Shown: one piece after another, positions 18,845 through 54,099 of the stretch
Numbering within the stretch: the stretch's first letter is position 1
Layout of the letters: every line of letters begins with the position of its first letter
Origin: a bacterium
GTDB lineage: Bacteria > Patescibacteriota > Microgenomatia > Levybacterales > UBA12049
Reading direction: 5' to 3'
DNA length: 64,000 bases
Assembly (NCBI GenBank): GCA_021813145.1
Contig: JAKALS010000005.1
Span: forward strand, 8,022-72,021
Position numbers and translations under genes: made by a program
Notes under the pieces: model-generated
The model's database searches: none
Seen by the model: the letters and a program-made list of their open reading frames with translations, nothing else
What the model was told of the DNA's origin: nothing

Positions 18845-18860
18845 GAGCCAATTATACTCT

Positions 18861-31699: not shown

Positions 31700-33582
31700 A
31701 AGAAATCCGGGCCGTCACTATTATTATCCACAAAACGAAGGTCGTTTGAAATAATCTCTTGGGGAAGCTCAAGGACAAAGCGGGAGACAACGTTTGTTGT
31801 TTTTTGTCCGAAAAACAGTCTTTTCCTTGCGTATGTTAAGAAGAGTTTTTTTCTTGCCCTCGTCATTCCTACATAACATAGTCTTCTTTCTTCCTCAAGC
31901 TCATTTTTATCCATAAGGCTTCTGGAATGTGGAAAAAGGCCTTCTTCCATTCCGACCATAAAAACCACAGGAAACTCCAAACCTTTTGCCGCGTGAAGAG
32001 TCATAAGATTGACTGCATTTTTTTTATCATCCGAGTCATCGGGATGGTCGGGCATATATTCCTGTTCCACAAGAGCAACATTTTCCAGAAAATTATCTAT
32101 CTGCGGAAATTCTATGGCTACCGAACGGAGTTCTTTTATGTTTTCAAGTCTCTGAAGATCGTCTTCATCTTTCTCGTCAAAGAGAGACAGATATTCGCTT
32201 TCTTTTACAATTTTATCCAGAATATCTATGGTTTTTTCTTTTGTAATAACTTCAGAGGTAAAATATTTCTGTGCTTGGGAGAATTTATTAAATCTCCCTT
32301 TGCCCAACTTTTCAATTCTTTTTAGAGAAATCTTATCTTTGGGATTTGCCAGGACCCTTACCATGGCAAGTATATCTTTTATCTCTTTCCTTTCATAAAA
32401 TCTTGTTCCCCCTATCAAAAGATATGGCAGTCCGAAATGAAGAAAAACTTCTTCTACGCTTCTTGACTGTGCATTAGTCCTATAAAGTACCGCAAAATCA
32501 CTGAATTTTAGGTCAGGATTCTGGTAACGCAGACTCGATACCTGTTGTATTATAAATTCTGCCTCTTTTTGTTCGTTTATTGCCTCGAATAATTCTATGT
32601 TTTCTCCGCCCGAATTTTGGGTCCAAAGCTTTAATACCGGGTGGCCCGTATTTTTTGCTATTATCGAGGATGCCGCGTCAAGAATTTTTTGTGTCGAACG
32701 GTAATTCTGCGAAAGAGAAAAAGTTTTCGTTCCTTTAAAATCTTCTTCAAACTTTGAAAGATTTTGAAAATCCGCTCCCCTGAAGCTGTAAATACTCTGG
32801 GAGAAGTCTCCGACAACGCAGATATTTTTAGCATTTTGAGCAAGAAGCCTGGTCAATTTATATTGTGCATGATTTGTATCCTGATATTCGTCAACCATTA
32901 TATATTGGAATTTATTCTGGTATTTTGAAAGTATCGCCGGATTTTGTTCAAACATTGAAACGGTTTTTAAAATGAGGTCGTCAAAATCCAGAGCATTATT
33001 CTCCTTAAGTATTTTTTGGTAAACTCCGTAGACGCTTGCTACCGTTTGCTGAAAATGGCCTCTTGCATAGTTTGGATATTCAGACGGGCCTATAAGTTCG
33101 TTTTTAGCTTCCGAAATAGTAGTCAAAACAGATGAGGGTTTATATTCTTTTGCCGACAGCCCCAATCTTTGAAAGGCTTCTTTAATTGCATCCTTTTGGT
33201 CCTGGCTGTCGTAAATTACAAAACTCCTGCCTATTTCCATGCTGTTTCCTTCTATCCTTAATATTTTTGCACAGAGGGAATGGAAAGTTGAAACCGTGGG
33301 CTTTGAGTTTAAAGGAAGGCCGAATTTATTAAAGAACTTTTGTATTCTTTCTTTCATTTCGTTGGCTGCTTTGTTGGTAAAAGTGACCATTAAAATATTT
33401 TCCGGGTCTACGGATTTTTCCGCTATCAGATAAACCACCTTATAAGTAAGTACTCTTGTTTTTCCCGAACCTGCGCCCGCCAGGATAATCATAGGCCCTT
33501 GCGAGTTTATTACCGCTTCTTGCTGCTGAGGGTTTAAGTCCTTGAGAAAGTCTTGTTTCATACCGTATAATGATACCATCAC
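31696..33582 (-). CDS. pcrA: ATP-dependent DNA helicase UvrD/PcrA
   Basis: GAGSGKTRVLT Walker A, DEYQDTN, and UvrD-family motifs. The real start may be the internal ATG at 33561. Confidence 0.85.
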   Translation of the reverse strand: MMVSLYGMKQDFLKDLNPQQQEAVINSQGPMIILAGAGSGKTRVLTYKVVYLIAEKSVDPENILMVTFTNKAANEMKERIQKFFNKFGLPLNSKPTVSTFHSLCAKILRIEGNSMEIGRSFVIYDSQDQKDAIKEAFQRLGLSAKEYKPSSVLTTISEAKNELIGPSEYPNYARGHFQQTVASVYGVYQKILKENNALDFDDLILKTVSMFEQNPAILSKYQNKFQYIMVDEYQDTNHAQYKLTRLLAQNAKNICVVGDFSQSIYSFRGADFQNLSKFEEDFKGTKTFSLSQNYRSTQKILDAASSIIAKNTGHPVLKLWTQNSGGENIELFEAINEQKEAEFIIQQVSSLRYQNPDLKFSDFAVLYRTNAQSRSVEEVFLHFGLPYLLIGGTRFYERKEIKDILAMVRVLANPKDKISLKRIEKLGKGRFNKFSQAQKYFTSEVITKEKTIDILDKIVKESEYLSLFDEKDEDDLQRLENIKELRSVAIEFPQIDNFLENVALVEQEYMPDHPDDSDDKKNAVNLMTLHAAKGLEFPVVFMVGMEEGLFPHSRSLMDKNELEEERRLCYVGMTRARKKLFLTYARKRLFFGQKTTNVVSRFVLELPQEIISNDLRFVDNNSDGPDFL

Positions 33583-33600
33583 ACTATACGTGACTCAAGC

Positions 33601-34266
33601 ATGGATAAGGTTTTTATAGTAGCAAACCTCAAGTCTTACAAGAATCAACAAGAAGCCCAGGAGTGGTTATATAGTTTAAGGACCAATAATTCAAAAATAG
33701 ATTTTACAAAAAAAGAAGTCATAATTTGCCCTCCCTTCCAGCTTCTTGCGGATTTTTCGTCATTTATAAAAACCAATAATTTGCCTTTTAAGTTAGGGGC
33801 CCAGAACGTTTCCCCTTTTCCCGAAGGAGCTTATACGGGAGAAATTAACGCCAAACAGTTAAAAGATTACTGCGAGTACGTAATAATAGGACACTCCGAA
33901 AGAAGACAGTATTTTAAAGAGGATGACGAAATGCTAAAAACCAAAGTACAGCAGTCTTGGAGCAAAGGAGTGATTCCTATTTTCTGCGTCCAGAACGAAA
34001 ACAACCCAATCCCCGATGAGGTCTCAATTGTTGCCTATGAACCTGTTTTTGCGATTGGAAGCGGCACTCCGGATACTCCCGAAAATGCAGAAATGGTAGC
34101 GCGTTCTATTAAAGAGAAAAAAGAAAACATTAAGGTACTTTACGGAGGAAGCATAGATTCGTTAAATGTTAAAAACTTCACATCCTCATCGAACTTAGGG
34201 GGAGTGTTGGTAGGAAGTGCAAGTCTTGATCCCCTTGAATTTATAAGGATATCGGAAAATGCGTAA
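33601..34266 (+). CDS. tpiA: triose-phosphate isomerase
   Basis: IGHSERR and YGGS TIM motifs. At 221 aa it is slightly short. Confidence 0.75.
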   Translation: MDKVFIVANLKSYKNQQEAQEWLYSLRTNNSKIDFTKKEVIICPPFQLLADFSSFIKTNNLPFKLGAQNVSPFPEGAYTGEINAKQLKDYCEYVIIGHSERRQYFKEDDEMLKTKVQQSWSKGVIPIFCVQNENNPIPDEVSIVAYEPVFAIGSGTPDTPENAEMVARSIKEKKENIKVLYGGSIDSLNVKNFTSSSNLGGVLVGSASLDPLEFIRISENA

Positions 34267-35356
34267 GAAAATAATCCCATTAATACTTGGAATACTATTC
34301 ATTTTTTTAATTGCAAGGGCCGTGACCGCGGCTCCGGGAGCTTTTTCTTTTCTTTTCCAACTTCTTTTTAACAGGGGAGTAGCATTAAAGCAAAACGGCC
34401 AAAGCCAGATTAATGTTCTTCTTTTGGGAATAGGTGGAGGAAATCACGACGGGCCGAATCTTACGGATACTATCATACTTGCAAACATTGATCAGAAAAA
34501 AGACAAGGTGACGCTTATTTCTATCCCGAGAGACATGTGGTTTCCCGATATAGATCAGAAAATAAATGCGGCATATGCGATAGGCCAGGCAAAAAAACCG
34601 GGTCTTGGGCTTTTGATGGCGGAGGCGGCTGTAGGGAAAATTACCGGACAGGAAATAGACTACGGGGTGAGGATAGATTTTTCGGGATTTGTTAAGGCAG
34701 TAAATCTTGTCGGAGGACTGGACATAAATGTGGATAATACTTTTGACGATTACCAATACCCGATAGACGGAATGGAAAACGCAAGCTGTGGCCATACCCA
34801 AGCGGAAATACAGGCGATGTCTAATGATTCCCAGGACCAGCTCGTTAAAGACTTCCCGTGTAGATATAAACACCTGCATTTTAATAAAGGTCCCCAACAT
34901 ATGGACGGAGAAACTGCGCTTGAATTTGTAAGGTCGAGACACGCCACCGGTGTTGAGGGAAGCGATTTCGCAAGAAGCAAGAGACAGGAAAAAGTAATAA
35001 AAGCGTTTAAAGATAAAATTCTTTCCCCGCAAACCCTCCTCAATCCTTCAAAGATAATAAGTCTTTACGACACACTTAAATCAAGCATAGATACCGATAT
35101 AAGTCAAAATGAGTACGACGACTTTATAAGACTTGCAGAGGAAATGAAAAATGCAAAAATACAAAGTGCCGTTATAGATACGGGTGATCCGGCAACAAAC
35201 CGTAACGGACTTTTAAATGAGAGCTCTGTCCTTTCGGATTACGGATATACTTCGGCTCTTTTACCGGTTTTGGGAAACGGAAATTATTCGCAAATACAAA
35301 AATACATATCTTGTGAAATCTCAACCGGAAATTGCTCTGTGCCTCCTGCCAAATAA
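34259..35356 (+). CDS. LCP (LytR-CpsA-Psr) family glycopolymer phosphotransferase
   Basis: TM anchor plus the INVLLLGIGG...TDTIILANID...ISIPRDMW LCP core. Confidence 0.8.
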   Translation: MRKKIIPLILGILFIFLIARAVTAAPGAFSFLFQLLFNRGVALKQNGQSQINVLLLGIGGGNHDGPNLTDTIILANIDQKKDKVTLISIPRDMWFPDIDQKINAAYAIGQAKKPGLGLLMAEAAVGKITGQEIDYGVRIDFSGFVKAVNLVGGLDINVDNTFDDYQYPIDGMENASCGHTQAEIQAMSNDSQDQLVKDFPCRYKHLHFNKGPQHMDGETALEFVRSRHATGVEGSDFARSKRQEKVIKAFKDKILSPQTLLNPSKIISLYDTLKSSIDTDISQNEYDDFIRLAEEMKNAKIQSAVIDTGDPATNRNGLLNESSVLSDYGYTSALLPVLGNGNYSQIQKYISCEISTGNCSVPPAK

Positions 35357-35364
35357 TTGTGAAA

Positions 35365-36618
35365 ATGAAAAAAATTATTGGATTTTTCCAGGAACCTTTG
35401 TTCTTAAAAATTCTCCTTTTTTTAATTGTGGGCTTAAGATTATTCCTGTTTACTTTTCCGAGTTTTAAAATAGACATGGGAGATTGGCAAGCATGGGCTT
35501 CAAGAATTAATCAGACGGGCCCCTTAGATTTTTATTTGCCGGGAATGCTTGCCGACTATCTTCCGTTTTTTTATCTCCTGCTTTTTATATTCACAAAAAT
35601 ATTTGTATTTATATTTAACAGTCAGGCAATATTTTCTCAAGCATTTGATCTTTATATAAGACTCATAAGCAACAGCTTTGATTTTTTAACCGCCTATCTT
35701 ATTTACAAGATTTTAAAAAACCATAATTCAAAATGGGGTTTTTTGGCAGGGCTTTTGTACCTCGTAAATCCCGCCGTAATTTTTAACAGTTCCGTTTGGG
35801 GTCAAACTGATTCTATTCCAACCTTCTTCTTTATATCGGCAATTTACTTTTTGAATGAAAGGAAAAAAGCAGCTGCATGGTCTATCGGTTCCGCCTTATC
35901 TCTTTTGGTAAAACCTTTAAATGTGGCTGCCATGCCTGTTACCGGAGTACGGCTTTTAAAAAACTTTTCATTAAGAGAAATTATTTTGGCGGCAATTTTT
36001 GCCGTCTTAATTTTTTTCCTTGTTACGGTACCCTTTTTTATTAAAGATCCGCTTTTTGGAATCTTCGGACATCTTTTAAATTCATTAAGTGTTTACCCGT
36101 ATACATCTTTAAATGCTTATAACTTTTGGAGTCTTGCCGTTGGCTGGTGGAAACCGGATTCGGGCCTTTTTTGGGGAATTTCTTATCATTTTTTAGGATA
36201 TATAATTTTCTTTTTAATTTTGGGAATTACCCTTATCCCATACGTAAAAATTAAGGGACGTTTTGAGCTTGATTATTTCGCAGCGGCGGTTTCTACTTTT
36301 GCGTTTTTTTTATTTTTGACAAGAATTCATGAAAGGCATCTTTTTCCTCTTTTTTCACTTCTAATTATTTCCGCTTTTCTATTCAGGTCAAAATTTCTTC
36401 TATTTTCCTATGTAGCGGTTTCTGTTATTAATTTTTTTGACCTTTTTTATTCTTATTATTACTATAATTTTGTTTATCAAAATCCGTTGTCGGCAAATAA
36501 TTTTCTTTTCTTAATCTCGCTGAATTTTGCAAACTTATTCGCACTGGTTCTTCTTTTTCTTTTCGCTTTTATATTTATATTGTATATGAGGACTGCTTTT
36601 TTAAAGCCTGAAAAGTAG
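35365..36618 (+). CDS. GT-C fold integral membrane glycosyltransferase (polyprenyl-phosphate-sugar dependent)
   Basis: About 11 TM helices with the loop architecture of the GT-C / DUF2079 / PMT_2 families. Directly downstream of the LCP gene. Confidence 0.5.
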   Translation: MKKIIGFFQEPLFLKILLFLIVGLRLFLFTFPSFKIDMGDWQAWASRINQTGPLDFYLPGMLADYLPFFYLLLFIFTKIFVFIFNSQAIFSQAFDLYIRLISNSFDFLTAYLIYKILKNHNSKWGFLAGLLYLVNPAVIFNSSVWGQTDSIPTFFFISAIYFLNERKKAAAWSIGSALSLLVKPLNVAAMPVTGVRLLKNFSLREIILAAIFAVLIFFLVTVPFFIKDPLFGIFGHLLNSLSVYPYTSLNAYNFWSLAVGWWKPDSGLFWGISYHFLGYIIFFLILGITLIPYVKIKGRFELDYFAAAVSTFAFFLFLTRIHERHLFPLFSLLIISAFLFRSKFLLFSYVAVSVINFFDLFYSYYYYNFVYQNPLSANNFLFLISLNFANLFALVLLFLFAFIFILYMRTAFLKPEK

Positions 36619-36634
36619 TATAATTATTTTTTGC

Positions 36635-37948
36635 ATGATAAAAAAATATTTAAACAGAAAATATCTGCCCGAGTTTCTCATTTTTTTCTTCGCCTTATTT
36701 ACGAGATTTTTCAGGCTCGATGTCCCCAAAAATTATATTTTCGACGAGGTTTATCATGCTTGGACGGCGGGGCAAATGTTTATGGGTAATCCGGCTGCAT
36801 GGGAGTGGTGGAATACTCCTCCGGCCGGCGTTGCCTATGAATGGACGCATCCTCCTTTGGCAAAAGAGTTCATGGTTTTGGCAATTGCCGCTTTTGGTAA
36901 TAACAGTTTTGCGTGGAGATTTTTTTCTGCCCTTTTCGGGTTCGGAGTAATAGTTCTTATTTATCTAATTGCCTACAAGCTTTTTAAAAGCAGGACAATA
37001 GCGCTTTTTGCATCTTTTGCGGCCTCTTGCGACGGGCTTTTGCTTGTAATGTCAAGAATAGGGATGAACGATATGTATTTCCTGTTCTTTGCGATGCTTG
37101 CTTTTCTTTTCTTTCTTAACAAGAAGAATTTTCTTATGGCAGTTTCCTTGGGTTTGTCGGTTGCCTCCAAGTGGACGGGGTTATTTGCCGTAGGCATATT
37201 GGGAATTATTTTTCTTGCAGAGCTTTCGCTTTTGCTAAAGAGGAAAAAAATAAAACAAAAAGAGGCTCTTAAAAAAATAATTATTTCGCCTATTTATTTT
37301 ATCCTTATTCCCTTTATTATCTATCTTCTTGTTTATCTCCCGTTTTTTACAGGACACCATACTCCTCCCGGGGAACAGCCGTCGCCTTTTAACGTAAATA
37401 CTTTTATAGGACTTCAGGAGCAGATGTATTGGTATCACACCGATTTAAAGGCAACACATCCGTACCAGTCCGTACCGGTGCAATGGGTTTTTGATTTAAG
37501 ACCTGTATGGATTTATGTAAATTATTCAGGAAGTACGATTGCCAATATATACAACCTCGGAAACCCTCTTTTTATGTGGTTCGGGTTAGCTGCCATGATT
37601 TTTCTTTTATTTGATTACATTAAGGAAAGAAATTTAAATCAGGGAATAGTTATTTTTTCTTATCTTGCTTTTTTTGTCCCGTGGGCGGCCTCTCCAAGAA
37701 TCATGTTTTATTATCATTACCTTCCTGCAGTTCCTTTTTTGGCGATTGCTACGGGGTATGTTCTAAATAAATTATTTGCTTCCTCTTCGGGCAGAATTGT
37801 AGTGGCGGTTTATCTTTTTACTCTTGTTGCTTTGTTTATTTACTTTCTTCCTTTATGGACGGCAATACCTGTTCCCAAATGTCAGATTCCGGGACCTAAT
37901 TGTACCAGCTGGTATGATTCCTTCTTCTGGCTCCCGAGTTGGAAATAA
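36635..37948 (+). CDS. GT39/PMT-family (ArnT-like) membrane glycosyltransferase
   Basis: N-terminal loop FDEVYHA (the DE motif of GT-C PMT/ArnT) and a PPLAKEF loop. Multi-TM. Confidence 0.7.
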   Translation: MIKKYLNRKYLPEFLIFFFALFTRFFRLDVPKNYIFDEVYHAWTAGQMFMGNPAAWEWWNTPPAGVAYEWTHPPLAKEFMVLAIAAFGNNSFAWRFFSALFGFGVIVLIYLIAYKLFKSRTIALFASFAASCDGLLLVMSRIGMNDMYFLFFAMLAFLFFLNKKNFLMAVSLGLSVASKWTGLFAVGILGIIFLAELSLLLKRKKIKQKEALKKIIISPIYFILIPFIIYLLVYLPFFTGHHTPPGEQPSPFNVNTFIGLQEQMYWYHTDLKATHPYQSVPVQWVFDLRPVWIYVNYSGSTIANIYNLGNPLFMWFGLAAMIFLLFDYIKERNLNQGIVIFSYLAFFVPWAASPRIMFYYHYLPAVPFLAIATGYVLNKLFASSSGRIVVAVYLFTLVALFIYFLPLWTAIPVPKCQIPGPNCTSWYDSFFWLPSWK

Positions 37949-37955
37949 ACTAAAA

Positions 37956-39161
37956 ATGAAAAAATTGGAGAGTTTTTTAAAAAGCAATAAAAACTCTTTG
38001 CCCCTTTTTTTGGGAACTCTTTTGGTATACGCACTGTCAGGAAATGGAAAAGGAGCCTATTACAATTATTATGTACTTCTTTCTCAAGCGTTCCTCAGGG
38101 GAGATTTATATGTCAGCCAACACCCAGCTTGGCTTAATGAATTGGTGCTGTTTGGCGGACACTATTTTGTCGTATACCCACCAATGCCGGCAATACTTCT
38201 GATGCCGTTCGTCTTTATTTTCGGGTCTTCCTTTTCCCAGCCTTTACTATCCGCCATTTTGGGTGCTTTAAGTGTGACCGCTTCATATTTTGTTATTAAG
38301 AAATTATTTAAGAGAAAGACAGCTTTTTTTATGACCGCTCTTTATGCTTTCGGTACTATGGAATGGTTCCACGCCTCGGTGGGTTCCGCTTGGTATATAG
38401 GCCAGATAGCGGGAATGCTTTTTATTTGGCTTTCGCTTTTAGAACTATTGACTAAAAAGAGACTGTTTTTTGTGGGATTTTTTATTGGACTGGCCTACAC
38501 TTCAAGATTGCCTACAATCCTGGCCTTGGTTTTTGTCCTCTTATATTCTTTTGAGGATTTTATAATCTTAAATAAAAATAGAATAAGGTTAAATCTTAAA
38601 AATTGTTTTTTATTCGGATTGGGATTTTTGCCTGCTTTATTATTCGAGGCAATTTATAACTTTTTAAGATTCGGGGTCTTTTACGACGCAGGTTATTTTT
38701 TGCTTTATAGAGCAGCTGAATTTAATGAGCCTTGGTATAAATTCGGTTATTTCAGTATAAGATATATTCCGGTACATCTAAATGAAATTTTTACCGCCTT
38801 GCCCAAATTTATTCCAACTCCTCCATATGTTATTCCGTCTATTTTTGTTATGGCCCTTTGGTTTGTCACGCCTGCATTTTTAATTATTCCCTTCGCAGAT
38901 TACAAAAAAAGACTTGCGGTAACCTCTTTGGTTACTGTTTTAATTATGTCTTTGCCTGGACTTTTGCATGGAGGCAATGACTTTACTCAATTTGGGTACA
39001 GAAATTCTTTGGATTACCTTCCCTTTATGCTCTTTCTTGTGGCAAGCGCCTTCGAGAAAGAAAAGCTGCAAAAAATAGGGATTGTTCTTATTTTGTTAAG
39101 TATTATTGTTAATCTTTGGGGCGTTGTAATGATTAACTTCTTGAATATTTGGGTTATTTAA
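37956..39161 (+). CDS. GT-C fold membrane glycosyltransferase, third in a row
   Basis: Multi-TM protein with a PMT_2-like layout. Start taken at ATG 37956, after the upstream stop. Confidence 0.55.
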   Translation: MKKLESFLKSNKNSLPLFLGTLLVYALSGNGKGAYYNYYVLLSQAFLRGDLYVSQHPAWLNELVLFGGHYFVVYPPMPAILLMPFVFIFGSSFSQPLLSAILGALSVTASYFVIKKLFKRKTAFFMTALYAFGTMEWFHASVGSAWYIGQIAGMLFIWLSLLELLTKKRLFFVGFFIGLAYTSRLPTILALVFVLLYSFEDFIILNKNRIRLNLKNCFLFGLGFLPALLFEAIYNFLRFGVFYDAGYFLLYRAAEFNEPWYKFGYFSIRYIPVHLNEIFTALPKFIPTPPYVIPSIFVMALWFVTPAFLIIPFADYKKRLAVTSLVTVLIMSLPGLLHGGNDFTQFGYRNSLDYLPFMLFLVASAFEKEKLQKIGIVLILLSIIVNLWGVVMINFLNIWVI

Positions 39162-39166
39162 AGATT

Positions 39167-40636
39167 TTACAAGGCAAACAAAAGTGCGGCTCCGATAATG
39201 GTAATTACTCCTCCTAAGAGTCCCAGTCCCAAAATAGTGCCGTCGGGTCCCGGTGATTTACCTCCGGGAGCCAGGGCCGGGGCCGAAGGGCTTGGCACCG
39301 GAGTCGGCGTAACAACGGGAGCCGGCGTAGACGTAGCGCTTGGAGTCGCCGTCGGAGCGGGAGATAGGGTGGGTTCTACCGTAGGAACGGGCGTCGGGCT
39401 TTGGGTAGGCGAAGGCGTCGGGCTTTGGGTAGGAACGGGAGTAGGCGTTGATGTGGGCATAGGCGTTGCGGTAGGAGTAGATGTAGGAGGATTATTAACG
39501 GGATTAACCTGGCTTCCGGAAGCGTAGACCACAAAATTTTGGGTTACAGTTCTTAGTATCCCGTTTGCATCTACGGTAGTTATAGTTATCGTATGGTTTC
39601 CGGGAGAAAGCGGAGTCTGCGGCCTGAAAGACCAATAGCCGTTTCCGTCTGTTGTAACCTGCGCGGTTATTACATCGCTTGAGTGAATCTCTATTTTTAC
39701 GGTCTGGTTTGGCTGGCCTGTCCCTTCGAAAAGAGGCTGCTCGTCGGAAAATCCTTCATTTGTTTTGGGTGTTATTATTTTGGGAACACCGTATGAAACG
39801 GCGGGTTTGGGAGTCGGAAAACTTTCCTGGTTGCTTTGAAAAGTTGAAGAGCCCGAAGCCGAAGGCGGTGGGCTGGAAAGGGGGCCCTGGCTGCTTGAAA
39901 AATCATAATCGTTTGACAGGGTTACGGTCGGCACGGGATTTATCTGGTTAATGGATAGTGTTACATTCGATGTAAGGCCGTCTCCGTAAACAAGCATTTT
40001 AAGTGTTGAAATATTGGAAAAATCCAGATATGAAGAAAGGTCAGATGTCCTTACCGAATTTAAGGGTATCAGATAAGTTCCGTCCGGTTTTATAAGGGAC
40101 GAGATGACTTGTGCATTATCCGCGGTTATATATACTATAGCTTGCGAAGGAGGGTTTCCGTTTGGCATTATAACTTTTCCTATTATCGGTTTTTGGGCTG
40201 AAGGAGGAGAAGAAATAGGCGTTCCGGTAACGACCTGGAAAGGAAGGCCGTTATTCAGAAAAGTATTTTGACCGCTTGTTATCGAAAAATAGTATTTTGT
40301 TTGGGGACTTAAATTTCTCACGGTAATGCTGTGTATGCTGTAATTTGAAAGAGTGCCTGTCTGTTGGTCCCGGTCGTCAAGGGCGGTTTGCCCAAGCGTT
40401 GACGTGCTCCCGTAATTTAAAGAGCCTATTACGCTAGCATCGGTTGAATAAGAAACGGTAAAAGAGGAGTCCGTGATATTTGTTATTCTTACGTTTTGCG
40501 GGCTTGAAGAAGGTGAAGCATTGCCCACTACAATTACTCCTTTTTCTACCAAAAAGGAGGTGACTCCTATTCCCACAACAATTAAGAATACCCCCAAAAG
40601 AGTAGGTATTCTTTTATTCCAAATAGATTTATTCAT
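39167..40636 (-). CDS. cell-surface protein: signal anchor, FN3/Ig-like domains, PT-repeat linker, tail-less C-terminal TM
   Basis: …[10 protein letters not shown]…YYFSIT (FN3-like), a (P[TS])n linker ([14 protein letters not shown]), and a terminal [16 protein letters not shown]. Confidence 0.6.
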
Positions 40637-40968
40637 GGCACTAACGTTCCACCGGCAGAGCTTTGAGGGCTATTCGCCGGTGCGCCCAATGGAAGAGCGG
40701 ATTGCGAAGAAGCGGGCGGTGCCGAGACAAATGGGGTAGGGGAAGGGCTCTGGGCGGTTTGTAGCTCGTAAATCGGATTCACTTGGGTTCTTTGTTTAAG
40801 CTGGGATATAGTAGCAGTATCAAAATTAGGGTTGATTGGCGCGATCTGAAGATTCAATAACGGGGGTATGGTAGATGAAACAGAGCTATGATAAATACTG
40901 AAAGCTATCCAGGCTATTATCAGAAGGAAAGAGGGGACAATTATTATCAAGATATCCTTTTGTTTCAT
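40633..40968 (-). CDS. small membrane-anchored Pro/Ser-rich protein
   Basis: 111 aa, in an operon position between the PilO-like gene and the surface protein. Confidence 0.35.
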
Positions 40969-40970
40969 AT

Positions 40971-41597
40971 TTATTGTTTATAATAAGCTGTTCCTTTAAT
41001 ATTTACAATCATGGCCGGACCTCCCGAGGATGTATTTTTGGCAATAGAGACGGTATTTAAAGAAATAATTCTTTGCATACTCAAAAGCCCCTGTGTAAAT
41101 TTGTTGATATTTTCGTAAGAGCCGCCGGCTGAAAGGCTGAACGTATAAGAATAACTGTCTTTTGCCGTTATGGAAGGGTCGGGGACTTGTGCTTCAAAAG
41201 TCTGGAGCCCGTTCAAACTGACTCCAGAATTTTGTGCCACTGCCTGGATTTGCGCTACTAAAATTGCGGATTCCGGAGTTTTTGGCACGGCGTTATAAAC
41301 GTAGGATAAATCGGGGGTAATCTGTGCATATTTCTGTTGGAGGGTATAAAGATTGTTAATTTTTGTCTGTAGCTGCTGGTCCACGTACATATCGTCGGAG
41401 AGTTGTTTGTTTAAATTAGCGATTGTCGATATCGTGGGGCTGATCGCAAATAGTCCGAAAAAAGACAATGCGGCAATTGTAAGGACCAAAGTCGTAAACT
41501 TCTGTGTTCTTTCTTCTTTAAAATCCGGAAGCATTTCCAGATATTTATTTTTTTGAATGTCTTTAAAAACGTTACTGCCCCGTACTTGCATATACAT
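40971..41597 (-). CDS. PilO-like type IV pilus assembly protein
   Basis: Short cytoplasmic N-terminus, one TM helix, then a coiled-coil periplasmic domain. Alternative start at 41534. Confidence 0.45.
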   Translation of the reverse strand: MYMQVRGSNVFKDIQKNKYLEMLPDFKEERTQKFTTLVLTIAALSFFGLFAISPTISTIANLNKQLSDDMYVDQQLQTKINNLYTLQQKYAQITPDLSYVYNAVPKTPESAILVAQIQAVAQNSGVSLNGLQTFEAQVPDPSITAKDSYSYTFSLSAGGSYENINKFTQGLLSMQRIISLNTVSIAKNTSSGGPAMIVNIKGTAYYKQ

Positions 41598-42135
41598 AAG
41601 CCGGTTTAAGATCGGCTGTTATATTTATACTTATCATGGCGCTTGAAGGCTTATTTTCTATTTTGTCTATGCTTATTGTGTCTATTGCCGGATAATTTTT
41701 TAAGGCATCTACAAAATCGGAGAGGGTAGAAATGGAATTTACATTAGCGTCTATTGTTATTCTGTCTTCAAAAAGGTTAAGGCTATTAAATGCTATCCCT
41801 TTGGGCGTAAGGGTAACGATATCGTTAATAATCTTCAGTCTTTGAGATGCAAGGCTGGAATTGGTTGATATAAGAGTAAGCCGTCCCTGCAAATTTCTAT
41901 ACTGCGCCTCGTTGTTTTTAAGATAATTCACTATTGCCTGTTCCTGGGTTATTTTTGAATGAAGGTCTATAAGTTTTCTGTCGAGGGAAAAACGGTAAAT
42001 AAAAGCACTCAGGGCTACGACCTCTGTTATTATTACCAAAAGTCTGCCTATTGTCAGCGCCCAACCCACGAATCTGTCTACAAAAGGAGTTTCTCTTTTA
42101 AGAAGATTTATGGAGTCCGGCCTTTTTTGCAGCAT
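41572..42135 (-). CDS. PilN-like type IV pilus assembly protein
   Basis: N-terminal SINLLKRE (the INLLP signature of PilN), one TM helix, and a periplasmic domain. Confidence 0.55.
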   Translation of the reverse strand: MLQKRPDSINLLKRETPFVDRFVGWALTIGRLLVIITEVVALSAFIYRFSLDRKLIDLHSKITQEQAIVNYLKNNEAQYRNLQGRLTLISTNSSLASQRLKIINDIVTLTPKGIAFNSLNLFEDRITIDANVNSISTLSDFVDALKNYPAIDTISIDKIENKPSSAMISINITADLKPAYVYASTGQ

Positions 42136-46042: not shown

Positions 46043-47251
46043 TTAGAGTGCGAAGAAAAGAAGTATTCCTGCTACCGAGATTATTGTTCCTATTATGCCG
46101 GCAGCCATTATTTTGTCACTGGGTCCTGTTGCCGGAAGAGTTTTTCCGGGCGTAGGCGTAGCCTGGGCCAACAATGTAGGAACGGGAGTTGCGTTTATTG
46201 TTATCGTCTGCGTGCATGTGGAAGTATCACTTACATTGCCAATATTATCCGTAAGCTGCGCGGTCGCCGTAAAGGTTCCCGAACTGTTGTATGTATGGGA
46301 AGCCTGAACGCTTACAGAACTGCTGCCTATCCCGCCGGTAGAGGTAATATCCTGTGTGGCGCTGTCTCCGTAGTTGAATGTTACTTTATTTATTGTATTA
46401 GCCGAAGAAGTTCCGGTTGCGGTGAAAGTTAATGTATAGGGGGCAGTTCCCGTCGCAGGGCCCGAAAGTGTAAGGCTTTGGCAAACTGGAGCCTGTCCAT
46501 TAACTGTGGGAGTAGGAGTTGGGCTCTCAGTTGGAATTGGCGTAGCCGTAGGCGCGGGGGTAGGCGTGGGTGTGGGAGTAGGGGTAGGAGTAGGGGTGGG
46601 TGTGGGAGTAGGTGTAGGAGTAGGGGTAGGCGTCGGACTTGCGGAAGGAGTAGCCCCCTGGTTGATTGTTATATTTGCCGGGCTGACTGTCGAGAGGACA
46701 TTTTCGTTAAACTGGTCGGTCGAAGCAATCGAGAGAACTTGTGTCTGAGACGTAAAAGTTACCTGTGTGGGAGCCGCATCCGTCGGGGCAATTGCCTGAA
46801 ATGCGATAGTCCCTATTTTTGTGGTCGTTTGTACTATATTCTGGGGGCTTCCTCCTATTGAAAGGGTAACGGATACCGTTCCCGGTCCGTATACCGGACC
46901 TTGAAGCACCGACGGAAAGGCTACTACATTAGGACACAAAGCATCGTCGGGTTTTGCTGGACATACGGCTGGACCCGCAGCCGCTGTAGCCAATTTTGTC
47001 GGGTCGTAATTTATTACCATTTTTACAAAAGACACCTGATTTGAACCCGGATTCATCATAATGTCGAGGTTGACAGGATCTCCCACGTTTACGGTTGTTG
47101 CCTGCGGATTGAAGCCCAAGGTTGTAGACTTTTGTGCGCTGGATTGGGTTTTCTGCTGTTGTTGCACAAGATAAACAGTCAGGGGAATAATAACAAGCAG
47201 GACTGCAATAAATCCGAATAACAGCAATTTTTTGCCCGATGGTAAGGACAT
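46043..47251 (-). CDS. cell-surface protein with (PT)n linker and C-terminal LPATG plus hydrophobic anchor (sortase-substrate-like, no basic tail)
   Basis: (PTPT)x12 linker and a terminal [19 protein letters not shown]. Confidence 0.6.
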
Positions 47252-49403: not shown

Positions 49404-50255
49404 ATGAGAAGGCTTCTTTTTATTGTCGTTCCTGTCCTTTTGGCAGTTTTAATTTTTGCCGTTATTTTTATTTTAATCAACAAAAACTCGGCCCCCGGCG
49501 CTTTACAGGTAACGTCGTCTCCCATAAGTAAAGTTTATCTTGACGGAAAACTGATAGGTCAGACCCCTCTTTGCAGATGTCAGGGAAGCGATATGATTTC
49601 TTCGGGAAATCATACTTTAAGACTTGTCCCCACGCAGGGAAACTTTGATCCCTTTGAGGAACAAATAACAGTTACGCCCTCCGTTCTTACGGTTGTCGAC
49701 AGAACTTTCGGACAGGGAGCATCCTCCCAGGGCTCTATAATAAGCCTTTCTCCGATACAGGATAAGACTGCCGCGCAACTTCTTATTGTTTCTTTTCCCG
49801 ATAATGCCCGGGTTAGTCTTGACAGCAATCCGTCGGGAAATACCCCATTACTTTTGCAAAATGTTACGCCTTCGGATCACGATATTCAACTAACCAAAGA
49901 CGGTTATGTGAGTAAAACGGTAAGAGTAAGGGCGGTACCGGGCTATAAACTCGAGGCAATCGTGTACCTCGGGGTAAACCTTACCACCGCAACCTCTTCC
50001 GCCCTTTTGTCGGCCAGTCCTTCGGCAAGCCCTGCACCCACTCCCTCGACAACAGTAACGGTTACAATTCTTCAGACTCCTACGGGATTTTTAAGAGTAA
50101 GAAGCGAACCTTCCTTGGGAGGAACGGAAATAACTCAAGTTAAACCCGGAGATAAATACCCGTTTGTTTCGGAGCAATCCGGATGGTACGAGATAAAACT
50201 TAATAACGGACAAACCGGCTGGGTAAGCGGCCAGTATGCGCAAAAATCCTCTTAA
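49404..50255 (+). CDS. membrane-anchored protein with two PEGA domains and a C-terminal bacterial SH3 domain
   Basis: VTSSPISKVYLDGKLIGQTPL and ARVSLDSNPSGNTPLLLQ (PEGA-like). C-terminal GFLRVRSEPS...GWYEIKLNNGQTGWVSGQY (SH3b). Confidence 0.65.
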   Translation: MRRLLFIVVPVLLAVLIFAVIFILINKNSAPGALQVTSSPISKVYLDGKLIGQTPLCRCQGSDMISSGNHTLRLVPTQGNFDPFEEQITVTPSVLTVVDRTFGQGASSQGSIISLSPIQDKTAAQLLIVSFPDNARVSLDSNPSGNTPLLLQNVTPSDHDIQLTKDGYVSKTVRVRAVPGYKLEAIVYLGVNLTTATSSALLSASPSASPAPTPSTTVTVTILQTPTGFLRVRSEPSLGGTEITQVKPGDKYPFVSEQSGWYEIKLNNGQTGWVSGQYAQKSS

Positions 50256-51196
50256 GGGCCTACAAAATATACGATAACAATTACCAGAAAAGCCCAAAGG
50301 GTAACCGTAAAAAGAAGGGGTATGTCGGATAAAAGGACTCTTTCCGGACTTTCACCTTCATTTTTTTCGTAAATATCCTGGAGATATCTCATAAGTCCGT
50401 AAACTACGGGAATTATTGTTATCATCAGCCATTTCCTCTGGAAAAAAGTAGGGAGAAAATCGGGCATAAAAACACCAAGGGCGAGTTTGAATCCTCCGGG
50501 GTTTTCAAGGAACGTAAATAGGGAGTAAGAAACGAATGTCGAAGTGGCAAAAATCGAGGCGTAAACATCAAGGAGCCTTTCGGAATAATGAGAAAGGGAC
50601 TTACGGGTAGAAGCAATATCATTTTCTTTGTCCCCCGATAAAAGTGTGAGCTCAGACCTTCTTTTGCCTATAGCCAAAAACAGCGAGATAGATATGGTCG
50701 TGAGCAAAAGCCATACGGATATATGGAATCCGCTTGCAAATTCTCCTCCGTAAACTCTTAGTATATAACCAGTAGCGATTAGAAGAATATCCAAAACGGC
50801 TACCGATTTTAAGAAGGAGGAATAAAGGAATTGGATTATTAAATAACTAAGTACCAGGGCAAAAAATGCCGGAGTAATTTCTCTTGCGACTATAAAGGAA
50901 AATACAATAAGAAAAGCGGCAAGTCCTATTGCAAACGGGACGGGAACGTCGCCATGGGCGAGAGGCCGGAATTTTTTAAAAGGATGTACCCTGTCTTTTT
51001 TTATGTCAAAAAGGTCGTTTATTATATAAGTTGCTGACGAAAGTCCGCAAAATACAAAGAATCCGAAAAGAACCTTTATAAAAACCGGCGGGTCAAAAAG
51101 TTCCCCGGCAAAAGTTATGGCGGCAAAAATCGCGAGGTTTTTTATCCATTGCCTGGGCCTTAATAATCTTAGTGTATTAAATGCCAGTTTTATCAT
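50252..51196 (-). CDS. UbiA-family prenyl-phosphate phosphoribosyltransferase (decaprenyl-phosphate phosphoribosyltransferase-like)
   Basis: LRPRQWIKNLAIF (the RPRQWxKN signature of DPPR synthases) and NDLFDIKKDRVHP (UbiA NDxxDxxxD). Confidence 0.7.
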   Translation of the reverse strand: MIKLAFNTLRLLRPRQWIKNLAIFAAITFAGELFDPPVFIKVLFGFFVFCGLSSATYIINDLFDIKKDRVHPFKKFRPLAHGDVPVPFAIGLAAFLIVFSFIVAREITPAFFALVLSYLIIQFLYSSFLKSVAVLDILLIATGYILRVYGGEFASGFHISVWLLLTTISISLFLAIGKRRSELTLLSGDKENDIASTRKSLSHYSERLLDVYASIFATSTFVSYSLFTFLENPGGFKLALGVFMPDFLPTFFQRKWLMITIIPVVYGLMRYLQDIYEKNEGESPERVLLSDIPLLFTVTLWAFLVIVIVYFVGP

Positions 51197-52256: not shown

Positions 52257-52258
52257 TT

Positions 52259-52612
52259 TTATAAAACTATCTGTATAGTTCTTACAACAAAAAGCATGGT
52301 AAGAATGGCGACGATAAGACTTATAACGGCAAGAAGTCTCGAGACGAGGGGCGTCTTTTTATAAAGAACGGAAGATACGATTATGTTAACGATAAGGATA
52401 AAAAATGAGATGACAGTAGGAATAAAAACTCCCCAGGTCGGGGCAAGCCTCGGCGTTCCCCACGGCAGTTGGTTATAAACCGGCATAAAAGGCGGAAGCC
52501 CCTTATAATTTATCAGTATGTAGGGAAGCGGGAGGATTATAAGGATAATTGTTGTCAGGAAACCTCTAAAAGTGAGCTTGTCCTGCCTTATATCACTAAA
52601 GAACTCTTTCAT
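52259..52612 (-). CDS. small 3-4 TM membrane protein, operon member
   Basis: 117 aa. Its start overlaps the upstream GT-C gene. Confidence 0.4.
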   Translation of the reverse strand: MKEFFSDIRQDKLTFRGFLTTIILIILPLPYILINYKGLPPFMPVYNQLPWGTPRLAPTWGVFIPTVISFFILIVNIIVSSVLYKKTPLVSRLLAVISLIVAILTMLFVVRTIQIVL

Positions 52613-54080: not shown

Positions 54081-54099
54081 ATTTTTAGCTTATCACAAA

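What the first reader, a model, noticed from the sequence alone, without database searches (positions are those of the whole stretch)
34259..39161. LCP ligase followed by three consecutive GT-C membrane glycosyltransferases
An LCP-family phosphotransferase is immediately followed by three large multi-TM GT-C proteins. The middle one has a clear PMT/ArnT-type DE loop (FDEVYHA). LCP enzymes attach polyprenyl-linked polymers to peptidoglycan. Together with the second cluster at 50-56 kb, this suggests a lipid-linked glycopolymer, or a protein-O-glycosylation system, built by several GT-C paralogues. Triplicated GT-C genes next to an LCP gene are unusual.
Basis: partly seen in the sequence, partly recalled or inferred. 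Interest (0 to 1): 0.6.

Follow-up and report, generated by a model that had tools for sequence, protein, structure and literature searches.

The report
Surface-protein glycosylation genes beside wall ligase
In a small uncultured Microgenomates (CPR) bacterium, a cell-wall ligase gene is followed by three unrelated membrane sugar-transferases; two of them form a widely conserved, often fused pair that most likely puts mannose on surface proteins, so this is a real but fairly ordinary and little-studied envelope gene set.

Summary
On the + strand, 7 to 16 bp apart, lie an LCP ligase (34259-35356) and three GT-C-fold membrane proteins: A (35365-36618), B (36635-37948) and C (37956-39161). B is a MIR-less PMT (GT39-type) enzyme with the FDEVYHA loop. 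A has no Pfam hit, but a confident model matches ALG6, GPI-MT-I and PimE. C matches PglB and ArnT.

They are not a triplication. Pairwise BLASTP E-values are 0.02 or worse, so these are three separate GT-C families. The arrangement is also not unusual, because it recurs across Microgenomates.

The conserved unit is A+B. In 66 of 77 evaluable species-representative loci (Patescibacteria, Chloroflexota, Bathyarchaeia), a PMT-like gene is adjacent to A or fused to it, and both halves keep their motifs. This matches the Pmt plus GT87-like partner complex recently reported in mycobacteria.

LCP travels only with a long Microgenomates synteny block. It is absent wherever A-B-C sits elsewhere.

Most likely reading: A+B is a two-subunit protein O-mannosyltransferase acting on PT-rich, sortase-signal surface proteins encoded nearby. 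C is an accessory GT-C, and LCP is an independent neighbour.

This is a new member of a known kind, of moderate interest.

The parts
33542..33571 (+). Promoter-like site (TTGAGA-18-TATAAT, 11 of 12) upstream of the TIM gene. It is the probable start of a TIM-LCP-A-B-C transcript.
   Evidence: Consensus match only. Terminator-like sites in 33400-39400 number 5 against 7.8 expected from shuffles, and all lie inside genes.
33601..34266 (+). Triose-phosphate isomerase gene. It overlaps the LCP start by 8 nt. It is a co-transcribed housekeeping neighbour and shows that operon membership here does not imply a shared function.
   Evidence: PF00121. The TIM-LCP juxtaposition is conserved in Levybacteria-type loci.
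34259..35356 (+). LCP (LytR-CpsA-Psr) phosphotransferase with an N-terminal membrane anchor and an extracytoplasmic catalytic domain.
   Evidence: Pfam 6.6e-33; TIGR00350 above cut-off; one TM at residues 5-23; aligned to Cps2A, TagT, TagU and TagV; PRD, VRIDF and FVRSRH conserved.
35365..36618 (+). GT-C protein A (417 aa): a GT87/ALG6/PimE-like fold with no Pfam model of its own. Predicted partner subunit of the PMT enzyme. Conserved first-loop Asp (D37, nt 35473-35475, in KIDMGDW), NPAxxxNSxxWGQxD (N135-D149) and TRIHER (residues 319-324).
   Evidence: no sequence-level family or PDB hit; homologues; 12 of 60 weakly hit GT87; model pLDDT 94.7; ALG6 E=8.6e-7, TM 0.72; GPI-MT-I, PimE, ALG3.
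36635..37948 (+). GT-C protein B (437 aa): a MIR-less PMT (GT39-type) protein O-mannosyltransferase homologue. DE motif FDEVYHA at 36740-36760, and YEWTHPPLAK.
   Evidence: PMT 1.4e-20, PMT_4TMC 2.7e-20; fungal Pmt structures 2e-8; DE aligned.
37956..39161 (+). GT-C protein C (401 aa): a PMT_2/ArnT/PglB-like fold from a Microgenomates/Chloroflexota family. Invariant first-loop Glu (E62, nt 38139-38141, in WLNELV) and YPPMP.
   Evidence: PMT_2 marginal; family, invariant columns; model pLDDT 93.1; PglB 1.6e-4, AglB, ALG12, ArnT, Pmt1; orthologues next to A-B in other genomes.
39167..40636 (-). Candidate substrate. Surface protein with an N-terminal TM or signal, fn3 and Ig-like (Big_13) domains, an 80% Pro/Thr/Ser stalk (from residue 383 on), and a C-terminal hydrophobic sorting-signal-like tail. 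It is convergent with C (5 bp between the stops) and last in the PilN-PilO-s111 operon.
   Evidence: Orthologues with a PT/S stalk and an LPXTG-like tail sit next to the GT-C array in 19 Microgenomates loci.
40633..42135 (-). PilN (41572-42135), PilO (40971-41597) and a 111-aa Pro/Ser-rich membrane protein (40633-40968), upstream of and overlapping the Big_13 gene. This is context, not part of the glycosylation machinery.
46043..47251 (-). Second candidate substrate. PKD-domain surface protein with a (PT)n linker (90% P/T/S in the best 40 aa) and a C-terminal LPATG motif (46124-46138) followed by a hydrophobic tail.
50252..55593 (-). Separate lipid-linked glycan cluster, the likelier source of an LCP substrate or of pentofuranose decoration. 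It holds a UbiA-type polyprenyl-phosphate phosphoribosyltransferase (50252-51196), a WecA-like GT4 (51177-52256), a 117-aa 3-TM ORF (52259-52612), a PMT_2 GT-C (52596-54080) and a membrane GT2-like protein (54100-55593).
   Evidence: NF008978 223.5 bits against cut-off 207; TIGR02380 1.3e-26; PF13632.

Best explanation
The three GT-C genes are not copies of one gene. A and B together encode a two-subunit Pmt-type glycosyltransferase. B is the GT39-like catalytic subunit. It takes a sugar, most likely mannose, from a polyprenyl-phosphate carrier on the outer face of the membrane and puts it on Ser/Thr of proteins as they emerge.

A is a GT87/ALG6-like GT-C that pairs with B in the membrane, as Pmt2 pairs with Pmt1 in yeast and as the GT87-like Rv0051 homologue pairs with Pmt in mycobacteria. 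Here A keeps a conserved first-loop Asp and other polar motifs. It may therefore also be catalytic, for example adding the next sugar.

C is a third, independent GT-C that usually lies nearby. It probably extends or diversifies the same glycans, because outside the cytoplasm only lipid-linked donors and GT-C enzymes are available.

The likeliest acceptors are the PT-rich stalks of sortase-signal surface proteins encoded next door (39167-40636, 46043-47251).

The LCP gene is co-transcribed but functionally separate. It ligates a polyprenyl-pyrophosphate-linked wall polymer to peptidoglycan, and that polymer is more plausibly primed by the WecA-like/UbiA cluster at 50-56 kb.

Shown: gene structure, folds, motifs, and A-B adjacency and fusion across phyla. 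Inferred: physical pairing, the sugar, the acceptors, and LCP independence.
For: - Families and folds: B passes PMT and PMT_4TMC, and its DE motif aligns with yeast Pmt1. A and C models (pLDDT 94.7 and 93.1) match only GT-C enzymes.
- A-B coupling: among 80 GTDB species-representative loci with an A gene, a PMT-like gene is fused to A in 18, directly downstream on the same strand in 42, and adjacent or near in 6 more. That is 66 of 77 evaluable loci.
- Fusions: they are always A-N-terminal and B-C-terminal and keep the A motifs (xxD in loop 1, NPA..WGQxD, TRxHER) and the B motifs (FDEVYH, YEWTHPP). Independently, 46 of the best 150 50%-identity cluster representatives of B homologues carry an N-terminal A domain.
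- Precedent: M. smegmatis Pmt pulls down a GT87-like GT-C, AlphaFold3 predicts a Pmt1-Pmt2-like heterodimer, and a Paenibacillus GT87-GT39 fusion is noted (bioRxiv 10.64898/2026.07.15.738315).
- Donor logic: in Bathyarchaeia the operon is A, B, then a small GT2 of polyprenyl/dolichyl-P-sugar-synthase size.
- Independence from LCP: the module occurs in archaea, Dehalococcoidia and Daviesbacteria with no LCP within 7 kb.
- C: it lies beside A-B in 29 of 80 loci in several orientations, including Dehalococcoidia.
- Substrates: Big_13 orthologues with PT/S stalks and LPXTG-like tails flank the GT-C array in 19 Microgenomates loci, and an archaeal locus has an S/T-rich anchored surface protein just upstream of A-B-GT2. 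PT-rich linkers are classic Pmt targets in actinobacteria and fungi (established knowledge; PMC11727336).
Against: - No polyprenyl-P-mannose synthase (Ppm1/GtrB-type GT2) was found in the window or within 10 kb outside it, so the donor pathway is unverified.
- B scores only 117 bits against the NCBIfam Pmt equivalog (cut-off 800), so it is a distant GT39 relative. Its sugar and acceptor could differ.
- No glycoprotein data exist for Patescibacteria in the papers searched.
- The A-B interaction was not modelled here.
- A's D37 was not superposed on a known catalytic Asp. The mycobacterial partner is reported to lack catalytic residues, so A's activity is open.
- LCP is 8 bp upstream of A in one probable transcript, and the LCP/GT-C neighbourhood persists across several Microgenomates classes. 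A functional link is therefore not excluded.
- Big_13 adjacency could equally be plain synteny.
Confidence: 0.55

Rival explanations
1. Wall-glycopolymer pathway. LCP and the three GT-Cs act in one pathway. A polyprenyl-PP-linked polymer (primed by the WecA-like enzyme) is elaborated outside the membrane by GT-Cs that use polyprenyl-P-sugars, including a UbiA-made pentofuranose donor. LCP then ligates the product to peptidoglycan. This would be a CPR analogue of mycobacterial arabinogalactan assembly or of YfhO-type teichoic-acid glycosylation.
For: - LCP-A-B-C are 7 to 16 bp apart behind one promoter-like site.
- The LCP/GT-C neighbourhood is kept in Levy-, Woese- and Blackburnbacteria and Microgenomatus.
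- The window also encodes a DPPR-synthase-type UbiA above its NCBIfam cut-off, a WecA-like GT4, another GT-C and a GT2, plus FemAB and MurJ.
- The known parallels are AftA-D/Emb plus Lcp1, and the three-component pentofuranose systems (PMC11127046).
Against: - The conserved unit A-B(-C) occurs without LCP in Daviesbacteria, Chloroflexota, Clostridia and archaea.
- The same operon also holds TIM, and the block holds UvrD and S20. Tight spacing here therefore does not imply a shared function.
- B has the PMT-specific PMT_4TMC domain and DE motif typical of protein-acting GT39 enzymes.
Confidence: 0.2
2. A is a non-catalytic scaffold. The A-B complex is a Pmt holoenzyme in which A only recruits or positions the acceptor polypeptide, as proposed for Pmt2 and for mycobacterial Rv0051. 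Any glycan extension is done by C or by enzymes encoded elsewhere.
For: The mycobacterial GT87-like partner is reported to lack catalytic residues yet is needed for Pmt function. A has no hit to any curated GT family.
Against: A-family proteins keep an almost invariant first-loop Asp and invariant N135, D149, K183 and R324, with nearly invariant H322 and E323, over about 25% identity and in all 17 fusions examined. That is more conservation of polar residues than a pure scaffold would need. This is suggestive only.
Confidence: 0.3
3. LCP-mediated protein glycosylation. As with Actinomyces oris LcpA and GspA, the LCP enzyme transfers a lipid-linked glycan (built or trimmed with help from the GT-Cs) onto a sortase-substrate surface protein such as the Big_13 or PKD protein, before wall anchoring.
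For: LCP lies next to the GT-C genes. Both PT-rich proteins have C-terminal sorting-signal-like tails, and one has LPATG. The precedent is PMC6381275.
Against: There is no direct evidence. No sortase gene was found in the window or 10 kb beyond it. LCP does not travel with A-B-C outside one synteny block.
Confidence: 0.07
4. Pilin or pilus-associated glycosylation. C (and perhaps A-B) O-glycosylates type IV pilus components, as the GT-C TfpW arabinosylates pilins in Pseudomonas aeruginosa using a UbiA-derived donor.
For: - In the six Levybacteria-type loci L005, L007, L012, L013, L016 and L017, C is inverted and sits on the same strand just after PilN-PilO-s111-Big_13.
- A UbiA DPPR synthase is present in the window.
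- The P. aeruginosa system is cited in PMC11127046.
Against: - No pilin gene lies in the cluster.
- No DprE1/E2 homologues were found in the window or its flanks.
- Daviesbacteria and Chloroflexota keep A-B-C away from pilus genes.
Confidence: 0.08

Closest known systems
Mycobacterial/corynebacterial Pmt complex: Pmt (GT39; Rv1002c/Cg1014) with the GT87-like Rv0051/MSMEG6899/Cg3312 (bioRxiv 10.64898/2026.07.15.738315)
   Same: A MIR-less bacterial GT39 enzyme with a DE motif is paired with a second GT-C protein of the GT87-like class. The predicted substrates are secreted or surface proteins.
   Different: - Here the two genes are adjacent (16 bp apart) and are fused in many relatives.
- The partner keeps a conserved first-loop Asp and other polar motifs, whereas the mycobacterial one is said to lack catalytic residues.
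- No beta-propeller or DivIVA-like subunits were identified.
- A third GT-C (C) is co-located.
Yeast Pmt1-Pmt2 heterodimer (PDB 6P25)
   Same: B aligns with Pmt1 across the DE loop and the C-terminal 4-TM region. Both have a dimer-of-GT-C architecture and a lipid-phosphate-mannose donor.
   Different: There are no MIR domains. The partner is not a GT39 paralogue but a different GT-C class (best fold match ALG6). B is half the length.
Paenibacillus GT87-GT39 fusion protein (UniProt V9WAU2, cited in the same preprint)
   Same: It has the same domain order that I find in 18 of 80 loci and in 46 of 150 B-family representatives: an N-terminal GT87-like domain and a C-terminal PMT domain.
   Different: The window has the split form. 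The fusion sequence itself was not compared.
Corynebacterineae arabinogalactan pathway (WecA, UbiA/DPPR synthase Rv3806c, AftA-D/Emb GT-Cs, Lcp1 ligase)
   Same: The window encodes the same enzyme classes: WecA-like GT4, a DPPR-synthase-type UbiA (above the NCBIfam cut-off), several GT-Cs and an LCP ligase.
   Different: - The classes are split into two clusters 11 kb apart.
- No DprE1/E2 epimerase or Rv3807c-type phosphatase was found.
- The GT-Cs next to LCP are a PMT pair conserved in organisms without LCP.
- None of the GT-Cs was shown to resemble the Aft/Emb families beyond the fold.
Three-component extracytoplasmic pentofuranose systems (PPPRS + MATE flippase + GT-C; Kelly et al. 2024, PMC11127046)
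   Same: The cluster at 50-54 kb has a UbiA-type phosphoribosyl-polyprenyl-phosphate synthase two genes from a GT-C.
   Different: There is no dedicated MATE flippase beside it (the MurJ at 42537-44195 is a lipid II flippase equivalog) and no PRP phosphatase domain. The GT-C is of PMT_2 type and was not tested against GT136. This concerns the neighbouring cluster, not the finding's genes.
Actinomyces oris LcpA-GspA (LCP-mediated glycosylation of an LPXTG protein; PMC6381275)
   Same: An LCP enzyme is encoded near surface proteins with sorting signals.
   Different: No evidence links this LCP to proteins, and no sortase was found nearby.

Membership tests
LCP (LytR-CpsA-Psr) glycopolymer transferases | LytR_cpsA_psr catalytic domain above the curated thresholds | tested here: met
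   Pfam PF03816 114.4 bits against 24.6. TIGR00350 96.5 against 62.3.
LCP (LytR-CpsA-Psr) glycopolymer transferases | N-terminal membrane anchor and conserved Arg/Asp pyrophosphate-binding residues | tested here: met
   One TM at residues 5-23. TD, PRD (the Arg mutated in Cps2A entry 2xxq), VRIDF, FVRSRH and R..RQ align with Cps2A.
LCP (LytR-CpsA-Psr) glycopolymer transferases | Transfers a polyprenyl-PP-linked polymer to peptidoglycan | not testable with these tools
   Needs biochemistry. The equivalog models (TagU, CpsA, LytR) score far below their cut-offs.
PMT / GT39 protein O-mannosyltransferases (protein B) | PMT N-terminal domain plus the PMT_4TMC C-terminal domain | tested here: met
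   PF02366 74.4 bits (cut-off 22.7) and PF16192 73.2 bits (cut-off 32.4).
PMT / GT39 protein O-mannosyltransferases (protein B) | Asp-Glu motif in the first extracytoplasmic loop | tested here: met
   FDEVYHA at 36740-36760. It aligns with VFDEVH of yeast Pmt1 and is invariant in 17 fusion relatives.
PMT / GT39 protein O-mannosyltransferases (protein B) | Lumenal MIR domains (eukaryotic PMTs only) | tested here: not met
   The 437-aa protein has no MIR hit. Actinobacterial Pmts also lack them, so this does not exclude bacterial-type membership.
PMT / GT39 protein O-mannosyltransferases (protein B) | Equivalog-level match to characterised bacterial Pmt (NCBIfam NF058602) | tested here: not met
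   117.4 bits against a cut-off of 800. B is a distant relative, so mannose and protein specificity are inferred.
GT-C fold glycosyltransferases (protein A) | GT-C membrane fold | tested here: met
   Model pLDDT 94.7, pTM 0.93. Foldseek matches: ALG6 E=8.6e-7 with TM 0.72, then PIG-U, GPI-MT-I, PimE, ArnT, ALG3, all at probability 1.0. Non-GT-C membrane proteins have TM below 0.2.
GT-C fold glycosyltransferases (protein A) | Conserved acidic residue in the first extracytoplasmic loop | tested here: inconclusive
   D37 is at least 90% conserved in 60 homologues and present in all 17 fusions. It lies just after TM1. It was not superposed on a known catalytic Asp.
GT87 (PimE-type polyprenol-P-mannose mannosyltransferases) (protein A) | Match to the PF09594 GT87 profile | tested here: not met
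   The window protein has no hit. 12 of 60 family members hit weakly (best 1.2e-8), alongside PMT_2, ALG6/8, PIG-U and ALG3 hits. A is therefore GT87-like, not a demonstrated member.
GT-C fold glycosyltransferases (protein C) | GT-C fold with a conserved acidic residue in the first loop | tested here: met
   Model pLDDT 93.1. Matches: PglB 1.6e-4, AglB, ALG12, ArnT, Pmt1. E62 is invariant in 49 sequences. PMT_2 scores 27.1 against 26.1.
Recent tandem triplication of one GT-C gene | Significant pairwise similarity among the three proteins | tested here: not met
   BLASTP: B-C E=0.02, A-B 0.16, A-C 7. Each has its own orthologue family.
Pmt + GT87-like partner heteromer | Conserved genomic coupling or fusion of the two GT-C genes | tested here: met
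   66 of 77 evaluable loci are adjacent or fused. 46 of 150 B-family representatives are A-B fusions.
Pmt + GT87-like partner heteromer | Physical interaction of the two proteins | not tested
Experimental support exists only for mycobacteria.
Three-component pentofuranose glycosylation system (neighbouring cluster) | Polyprenyl-phosphate phosphoribosyltransferase (UbiA type) | tested here: met
   NF008978 223.5 bits against a cut-off of 207. NF008977 233.7 against 234.
Three-component pentofuranose glycosylation system (neighbouring cluster) | Dedicated MATE-family flippase and a phosphatase or epimerase next to the GT-C | tested here: not met
   None in 50-56 kb. Only an uncharacterised 117-aa 3-TM ORF is present.

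The most novel reading that the evidence does not exclude
A is an active second catalytic centre. The A-B pair (a single polypeptide in many lineages) would then be a bifunctional extracytoplasmic O-glycan synthase: B initiates on Ser/Thr, and A (with C) extends the chain from polyprenyl-P-sugars. This would identify the long-missing elongating enzymes of prokaryotic protein O-mannosylation. It would also show that the machinery is ancient and shared by CPR bacteria, Chloroflexota and Bathyarchaeia. In Microgenomates it would be genomically tied to a sortase-anchored, PT-stalked protein of the type IV pilus operon.
Probability: 0.15. Interest if true: 0.7.

Novelty: new member of a known kind. 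Interest (0 to 1): 0.38.

Why it matters
Almost nothing is known about surface glycans of Patescibacteria. The reviews and genetic studies I searched do not mention them. Yet these cells live attached to hosts through their surface.

The analysis assigns a concrete and testable role to two 'hypothetical' membrane proteins that lack Pfam families. It also shows that the Pmt plus second GT-C pairing, so far proposed for mycobacteria in one 2026 preprint, is the rule across several phyla, with frequent gene fusion. That supports dimerisation as a general property of Pmt enzymes. It also offers compact fused proteins for structural work.

PMC11727336 states that the enzymes elongating bacterial O-mannose glycans are unknown. 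A and C are reasonable candidates.

As a genome feature, though, this is an ordinary, conserved envelope gene cluster. It is not a new kind of system.

Tried and rejected
(1) Recent triplication: rejected by all-against-all BLASTP.

(3) Sequence-level links of A and C to solved structures: single-sequence and profile searches of PDB sequences found nothing. Only fold comparison worked.

(5) LCP as an obligate partner of the GT-Cs: not supported. LCP is within 7 kb in only 24 of 80 loci, all sharing one long synteny block.

(6) Search for the donor synthase (Ppm1/GtrB-type GT2), DprE1/E2 and sortase in the window and 10 kb beyond each end: none found. The rest of the genome could not be examined.

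(7) tRNA and Rfam scans of the window: nothing.

(8) Literature searches for GT-C or mannosyltransferases in Patescibacteria, and for COG5542: no relevant description.

(9) Source annotations and cluster names for the window's four proteins: none carried.

Full report
**What is there**

The window is low-GC (about 39%) and full of housekeeping genes. The closest public relatives of the proteins studied are Candidatus Levybacteria and Daviesbacteria (Microgenomates, Patescibacteria/CPR). Identical proteins lie on public metagenome contigs of about 124 kb.

Five genes lie on the + strand from 33.6 to 39.2 kb:
- triose-phosphate isomerase (33601-34266)
- an LCP protein (34259-35356, overlapping TIM by 8 nt)
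- A (35365-36618, 8 bp after LCP)
- B (36635-37948, 16 bp after A)
- C (37956-39161, 7 bp after B)

The mechanical ORF list starts A and C at upstream TTGs. The ATGs I use give the 417, 437 and 401 aa products that public gene callers also report. A good promoter-like site lies upstream of TIM, and nothing terminator-like lies between the genes. One transcript is therefore likely (inference).

**Checking the observation**

LCP passes the Pfam and TIGRFAM domain thresholds. It has a single N-terminal TM segment and keeps the Arg/Asp motifs of Cps2A and TagT/U/V.

B passes both PMT and PMT_4TMC. Its FDEVYHA (36740-36760) aligns with the VFDEVH catalytic loop of yeast Pmt1. It has no MIR domain, like actinobacterial Pmts.

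A has no Pfam, NCBIfam or PDB-sequence match, even as a 60-sequence profile. C passes PMT_2 by one bit. I therefore modelled both from alignments of their homologues (A1, A2). The models are confident (pLDDT 94.7 and 93.1), and Foldseek against the PDB returns GT-C enzymes only:
- A matches ALG6 (E=8.6e-7, TM 0.72), PIG-U, GPI mannosyltransferase I, PimE, ArnT and ALG3.
- C matches PglB, AglB, ALG12, ArnT and Pmt1.
- Transporters and GPCRs are at noise level.

**What is wrong in the description**

The three proteins are not copies of each other. BLASTP gives B-C E=0.02, A-B 0.16 and A-C 7. Each has its own large orthologue family. They are three different GT-C families that happen to sit together.

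**The informative comparison**

I scanned one genome per GTDB species with the A-family profile. More than 552 relatives were found, and 80 loci were kept (L010-L089). I searched ±7 kb of each for A, B, C and LCP.

| Position of the PMT-like gene relative to A | Loci |
|---|---|
| Fused to A in one reading frame | 18 |
| Immediately downstream, same strand | 42 |
| Adjacent in another orientation | 5 |
| 532 bp away | 1 |
| Absent (mostly Methanoperedens-type archaea) | 11 |
| Not evaluable (contig end) | 3 |

That makes 66 of 77 evaluable loci with the pair adjacent or fused. The pair occurs in Levy-, Davies-, Woese- and Blackburnbacteria, Dehalococcoidia/Chloroflexota, a Clostridia MAG, Bathyarchaeia and Nitrososphaerota.

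In the fusions A is always N-terminal and B C-terminal, joined by a short linker of variable length. Both halves keep their signature motifs:
- A: the first-loop Asp (D37 here), NPAxxxNSxxWGQxD and TRxHER.
- B: FDEVYH and YEWTHPPLAK.

An independent, exhaustive phmmer search with B against 1.84 billion cluster representatives found 5262 relatives. Of the best 150, 46 have an N-terminal A domain of at least 100 bits. One fusion lies in a complete Woesebacteria genome (CP011214, L069), so misassembly is not the explanation. A and B are thus a conserved functional pair.

**Context in the literature**

A July 2026 preprint (10.64898/2026.07.15.738315) reports three things. M. smegmatis Pmt pulls down a GT87-like GT-C (MSMEG6899, the homologue of Rv0051). 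AlphaFold3 places the two in a Pmt1-Pmt2-like heterodimer. Some Paenibacillus GT39 enzymes are fused to a GT87 domain, which led the authors to suggest that dimerisation is general for Pmts.

The A-B pair in this window is the same kind of arrangement. The A family is best described as GT87-like: 12 of 60 members give weak GT87 hits, and others hit PMT_2, ALG6/8, PIG-U or ALG3.

**C and LCP**

C orthologues lie beside A-B in 29 of 80 loci, in varied orientations:
- on the same strand, as here and in L004 and L010;
- inverted and co-directional with the Big_13-Pil operon in other Levybacteria;
- divergently transcribed from A-B in Daviesbacteria;
- present in two Dehalococcoidia loci.

This pattern is what one expects of a functionally associated but separable gene.

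LCP behaves differently. It lies within 7 kb in 24 of 80 loci. All of these are Microgenomates that share one long block: FemAB-UvrD-(TIM)-LCP-[variable GT-C array]-Big_13-PilO-PilN-S20-MurJ. Where A-B-C sits elsewhere, LCP does not accompany it. In Daviesbacteria the trio lies next to miaA, HU, RNase Y and RecA. The same is true where the host has no murein (archaea, and by general knowledge Dehalococcoidia).

The block also contains obviously unrelated genes (TIM, UvrD, S20). I therefore read LCP as a syntenic neighbour within an envelope-rich region, not as a mechanistic partner. A link is not excluded.

**Donor and acceptor**

GT-C enzymes use polyprenyl-phosphate sugars outside the membrane (established knowledge). 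In Bathyarchaeia the operon is A, then B, then a small GT2 of about 255 aa. That is the size and family of dolichyl/polyprenyl-P-sugar synthases. No such GT2 lies in this window or 10 kb beyond either end, which is a gap in the model.

Two candidate acceptors are encoded nearby:
- Directly convergent with C is a surface protein (39167-40636) with fn3 and Ig-like domains, an 80% Pro/Thr/Ser stalk and a C-terminal hydrophobic tail.
- A PKD protein (46043-47251) has a (PT)n linker and an LPATG motif.

Orthologues of the Big_13 protein in 19 Microgenomates loci all keep a PT/S-rich stalk and an LPXTG-like or PxxG tail. One archaeal chromosome has an S/T-rich anchored surface protein just upstream of A-B-GT2. 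PT-rich linkers are the classic Pmt substrates in actinobacteria and fungi (PMC11727336 and general knowledge). This is circumstantial.

**The second cluster (50-56 kb)**

This cluster is a different system. It holds:
- a UbiA protein that passes the NCBIfam equivalog cut-off for decaprenyl-phosphate phosphoribosyltransferase;
- a WecA-like GT4;
- a small 3-TM ORF;
- a PMT_2 GT-C;
- a membrane GT2-like protein.

It recalls both the arabinogalactan pathway and the three-component pentofuranose systems of Kelly et al. 2024. However, it lacks a recognisable flippase, phosphatase or epimerase. Because LCP enzymes need a polyprenyl-pyrophosphate-linked donor of the kind WecA/TagO enzymes prime, this cluster is the more natural source of the LCP substrate (inference).

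**Verdict**

The feature is real and non-random. Its best reading is:
- a Pmt-type protein O-glycosylation module, with A+B as a two-subunit enzyme and C as an accessory GT-C;
- this module sits in a conserved Microgenomates envelope block next to an independent LCP ligase.

Confidence is about 0.85 that A and B work together. It is about 0.55 for the whole statement, including protein acceptors and LCP independence.

The main rival (0.2) is a single wall-polymer pathway that uses all four genes. The feature is a new lineage member of a recently recognised kind (Pmt plus a GT87-like partner). What it adds is that the pairing or fusion is widespread and that the partner may be catalytic.

Noticed in passing
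window 50252-55593 (- strand): A cluster of a UbiA-type decaprenyl-phosphate phosphoribosyltransferase (passes NCBIfam NF008978), a WecA-like GT4, a 117-aa 3-TM ORF (52259-52612), a PMT_2 GT-C with a C-terminal soluble domain, and a membrane GT2-like protein. It looks like a lipid-linked pentofuranose or wall-polymer system in a CPR genome. No epimerase, phosphatase or flippase was recognised.
   Followed up: partly
window 13492-18922 (- strand): Two tandem large proteins (652 and 615 aa), each with two GH130 (beta-mannoside phosphorylase) matches, next to an MFS transporter. This suggests mannoside and mannose-1-phosphate metabolism that could feed a mannose-based glycosylation pathway.
   Followed up: no
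window 39167-42135 (- strand): The PT-stalked Big_13 surface protein overlaps a 111-aa Pro/Ser-rich membrane protein by 4 nt and lies downstream of PilN-PilO. It is therefore probably part of the type IV pilus alignment-complex operon. The order PilN-PilO-small ORF-Big_13 is conserved in many Microgenomates loci (L004, L005, L007, L045, L066, L069).
   Followed up: partly
window 46124-46138 and 39167-39270 (- strand): Both PT-rich proteins end in very similar tails (…[31 protein letters not shown] and …[34 protein letters not shown]). These are LPXTG-like sorting signals without the usual basic tail. Orthologues vary the motif (LPPTG, LAPTG, LLPTG, PESG). No sortase gene was found in the window or 10 kb beyond it.
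   Followed up: partly
window 4578-6091: An MprF-like 'flippase-like domain' protein (LPG_synthase_TM only, no synthase domain) lies next to a small protein with a weak Wzt_C (glycan-binding) match. It is a possible lipid-linked sugar flippase candidate.
   Followed up: no
window 62612-63061 (- strand): This ORF matches Pfam NAD-GH (PF10712). It lies antisense to the DnaK (HSP70) gene of the HrcA-GrpE-DnaK-DnaJ operon (L090 11245-13149), so it is almost certainly a spurious antisense ORF and not a gene.
   Followed up: partly
L059 4475-9448: One Microgenomates MAG carries two extra stand-alone A-family genes in tandem directly upstream of the A-B fusion. Other loci (L045, L048, L051, L058, L066, L069) have an extra multi-TM ORF of about 630-660 aa between LCP or C and the fusion. 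The slot between LCP and Big_13 behaves as a variable GT-C array.
   Followed up: partly
L088 3926-10786; L056 7013-10645: In Bathyarchaeia-type archaea the operon is A, then PMT-like B (540-625 aa), then a small GT2. In L088 it is preceded by a 719-aa surface protein with Ig-like/PEGA domains, a 65% Ser/Thr/Pro stalk and a C-terminal TM anchor.
   Followed up: partly
L012, L017, L021, L031, L032 and others (record titles): Many MAG records titled 'uncultured Gammaproteobacteria' or 'Pseudomonadales' carry the Microgenomates-specific synteny block and A-family proteins about 33-53% identical to this window's. The taxon in those record titles looks wrong.
   Followed up: no
L091 1366-6665 (same contig, upstream of the window): A segment with a 67-aa ORF, an inorganic pyrophosphatase gene and a BrnT/CopG toxin-antitoxin pair appears twice within 5 kb, next to an integrase (rve) gene. 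This may be a duplicated or mobile region just outside the window.
   Followed up: no
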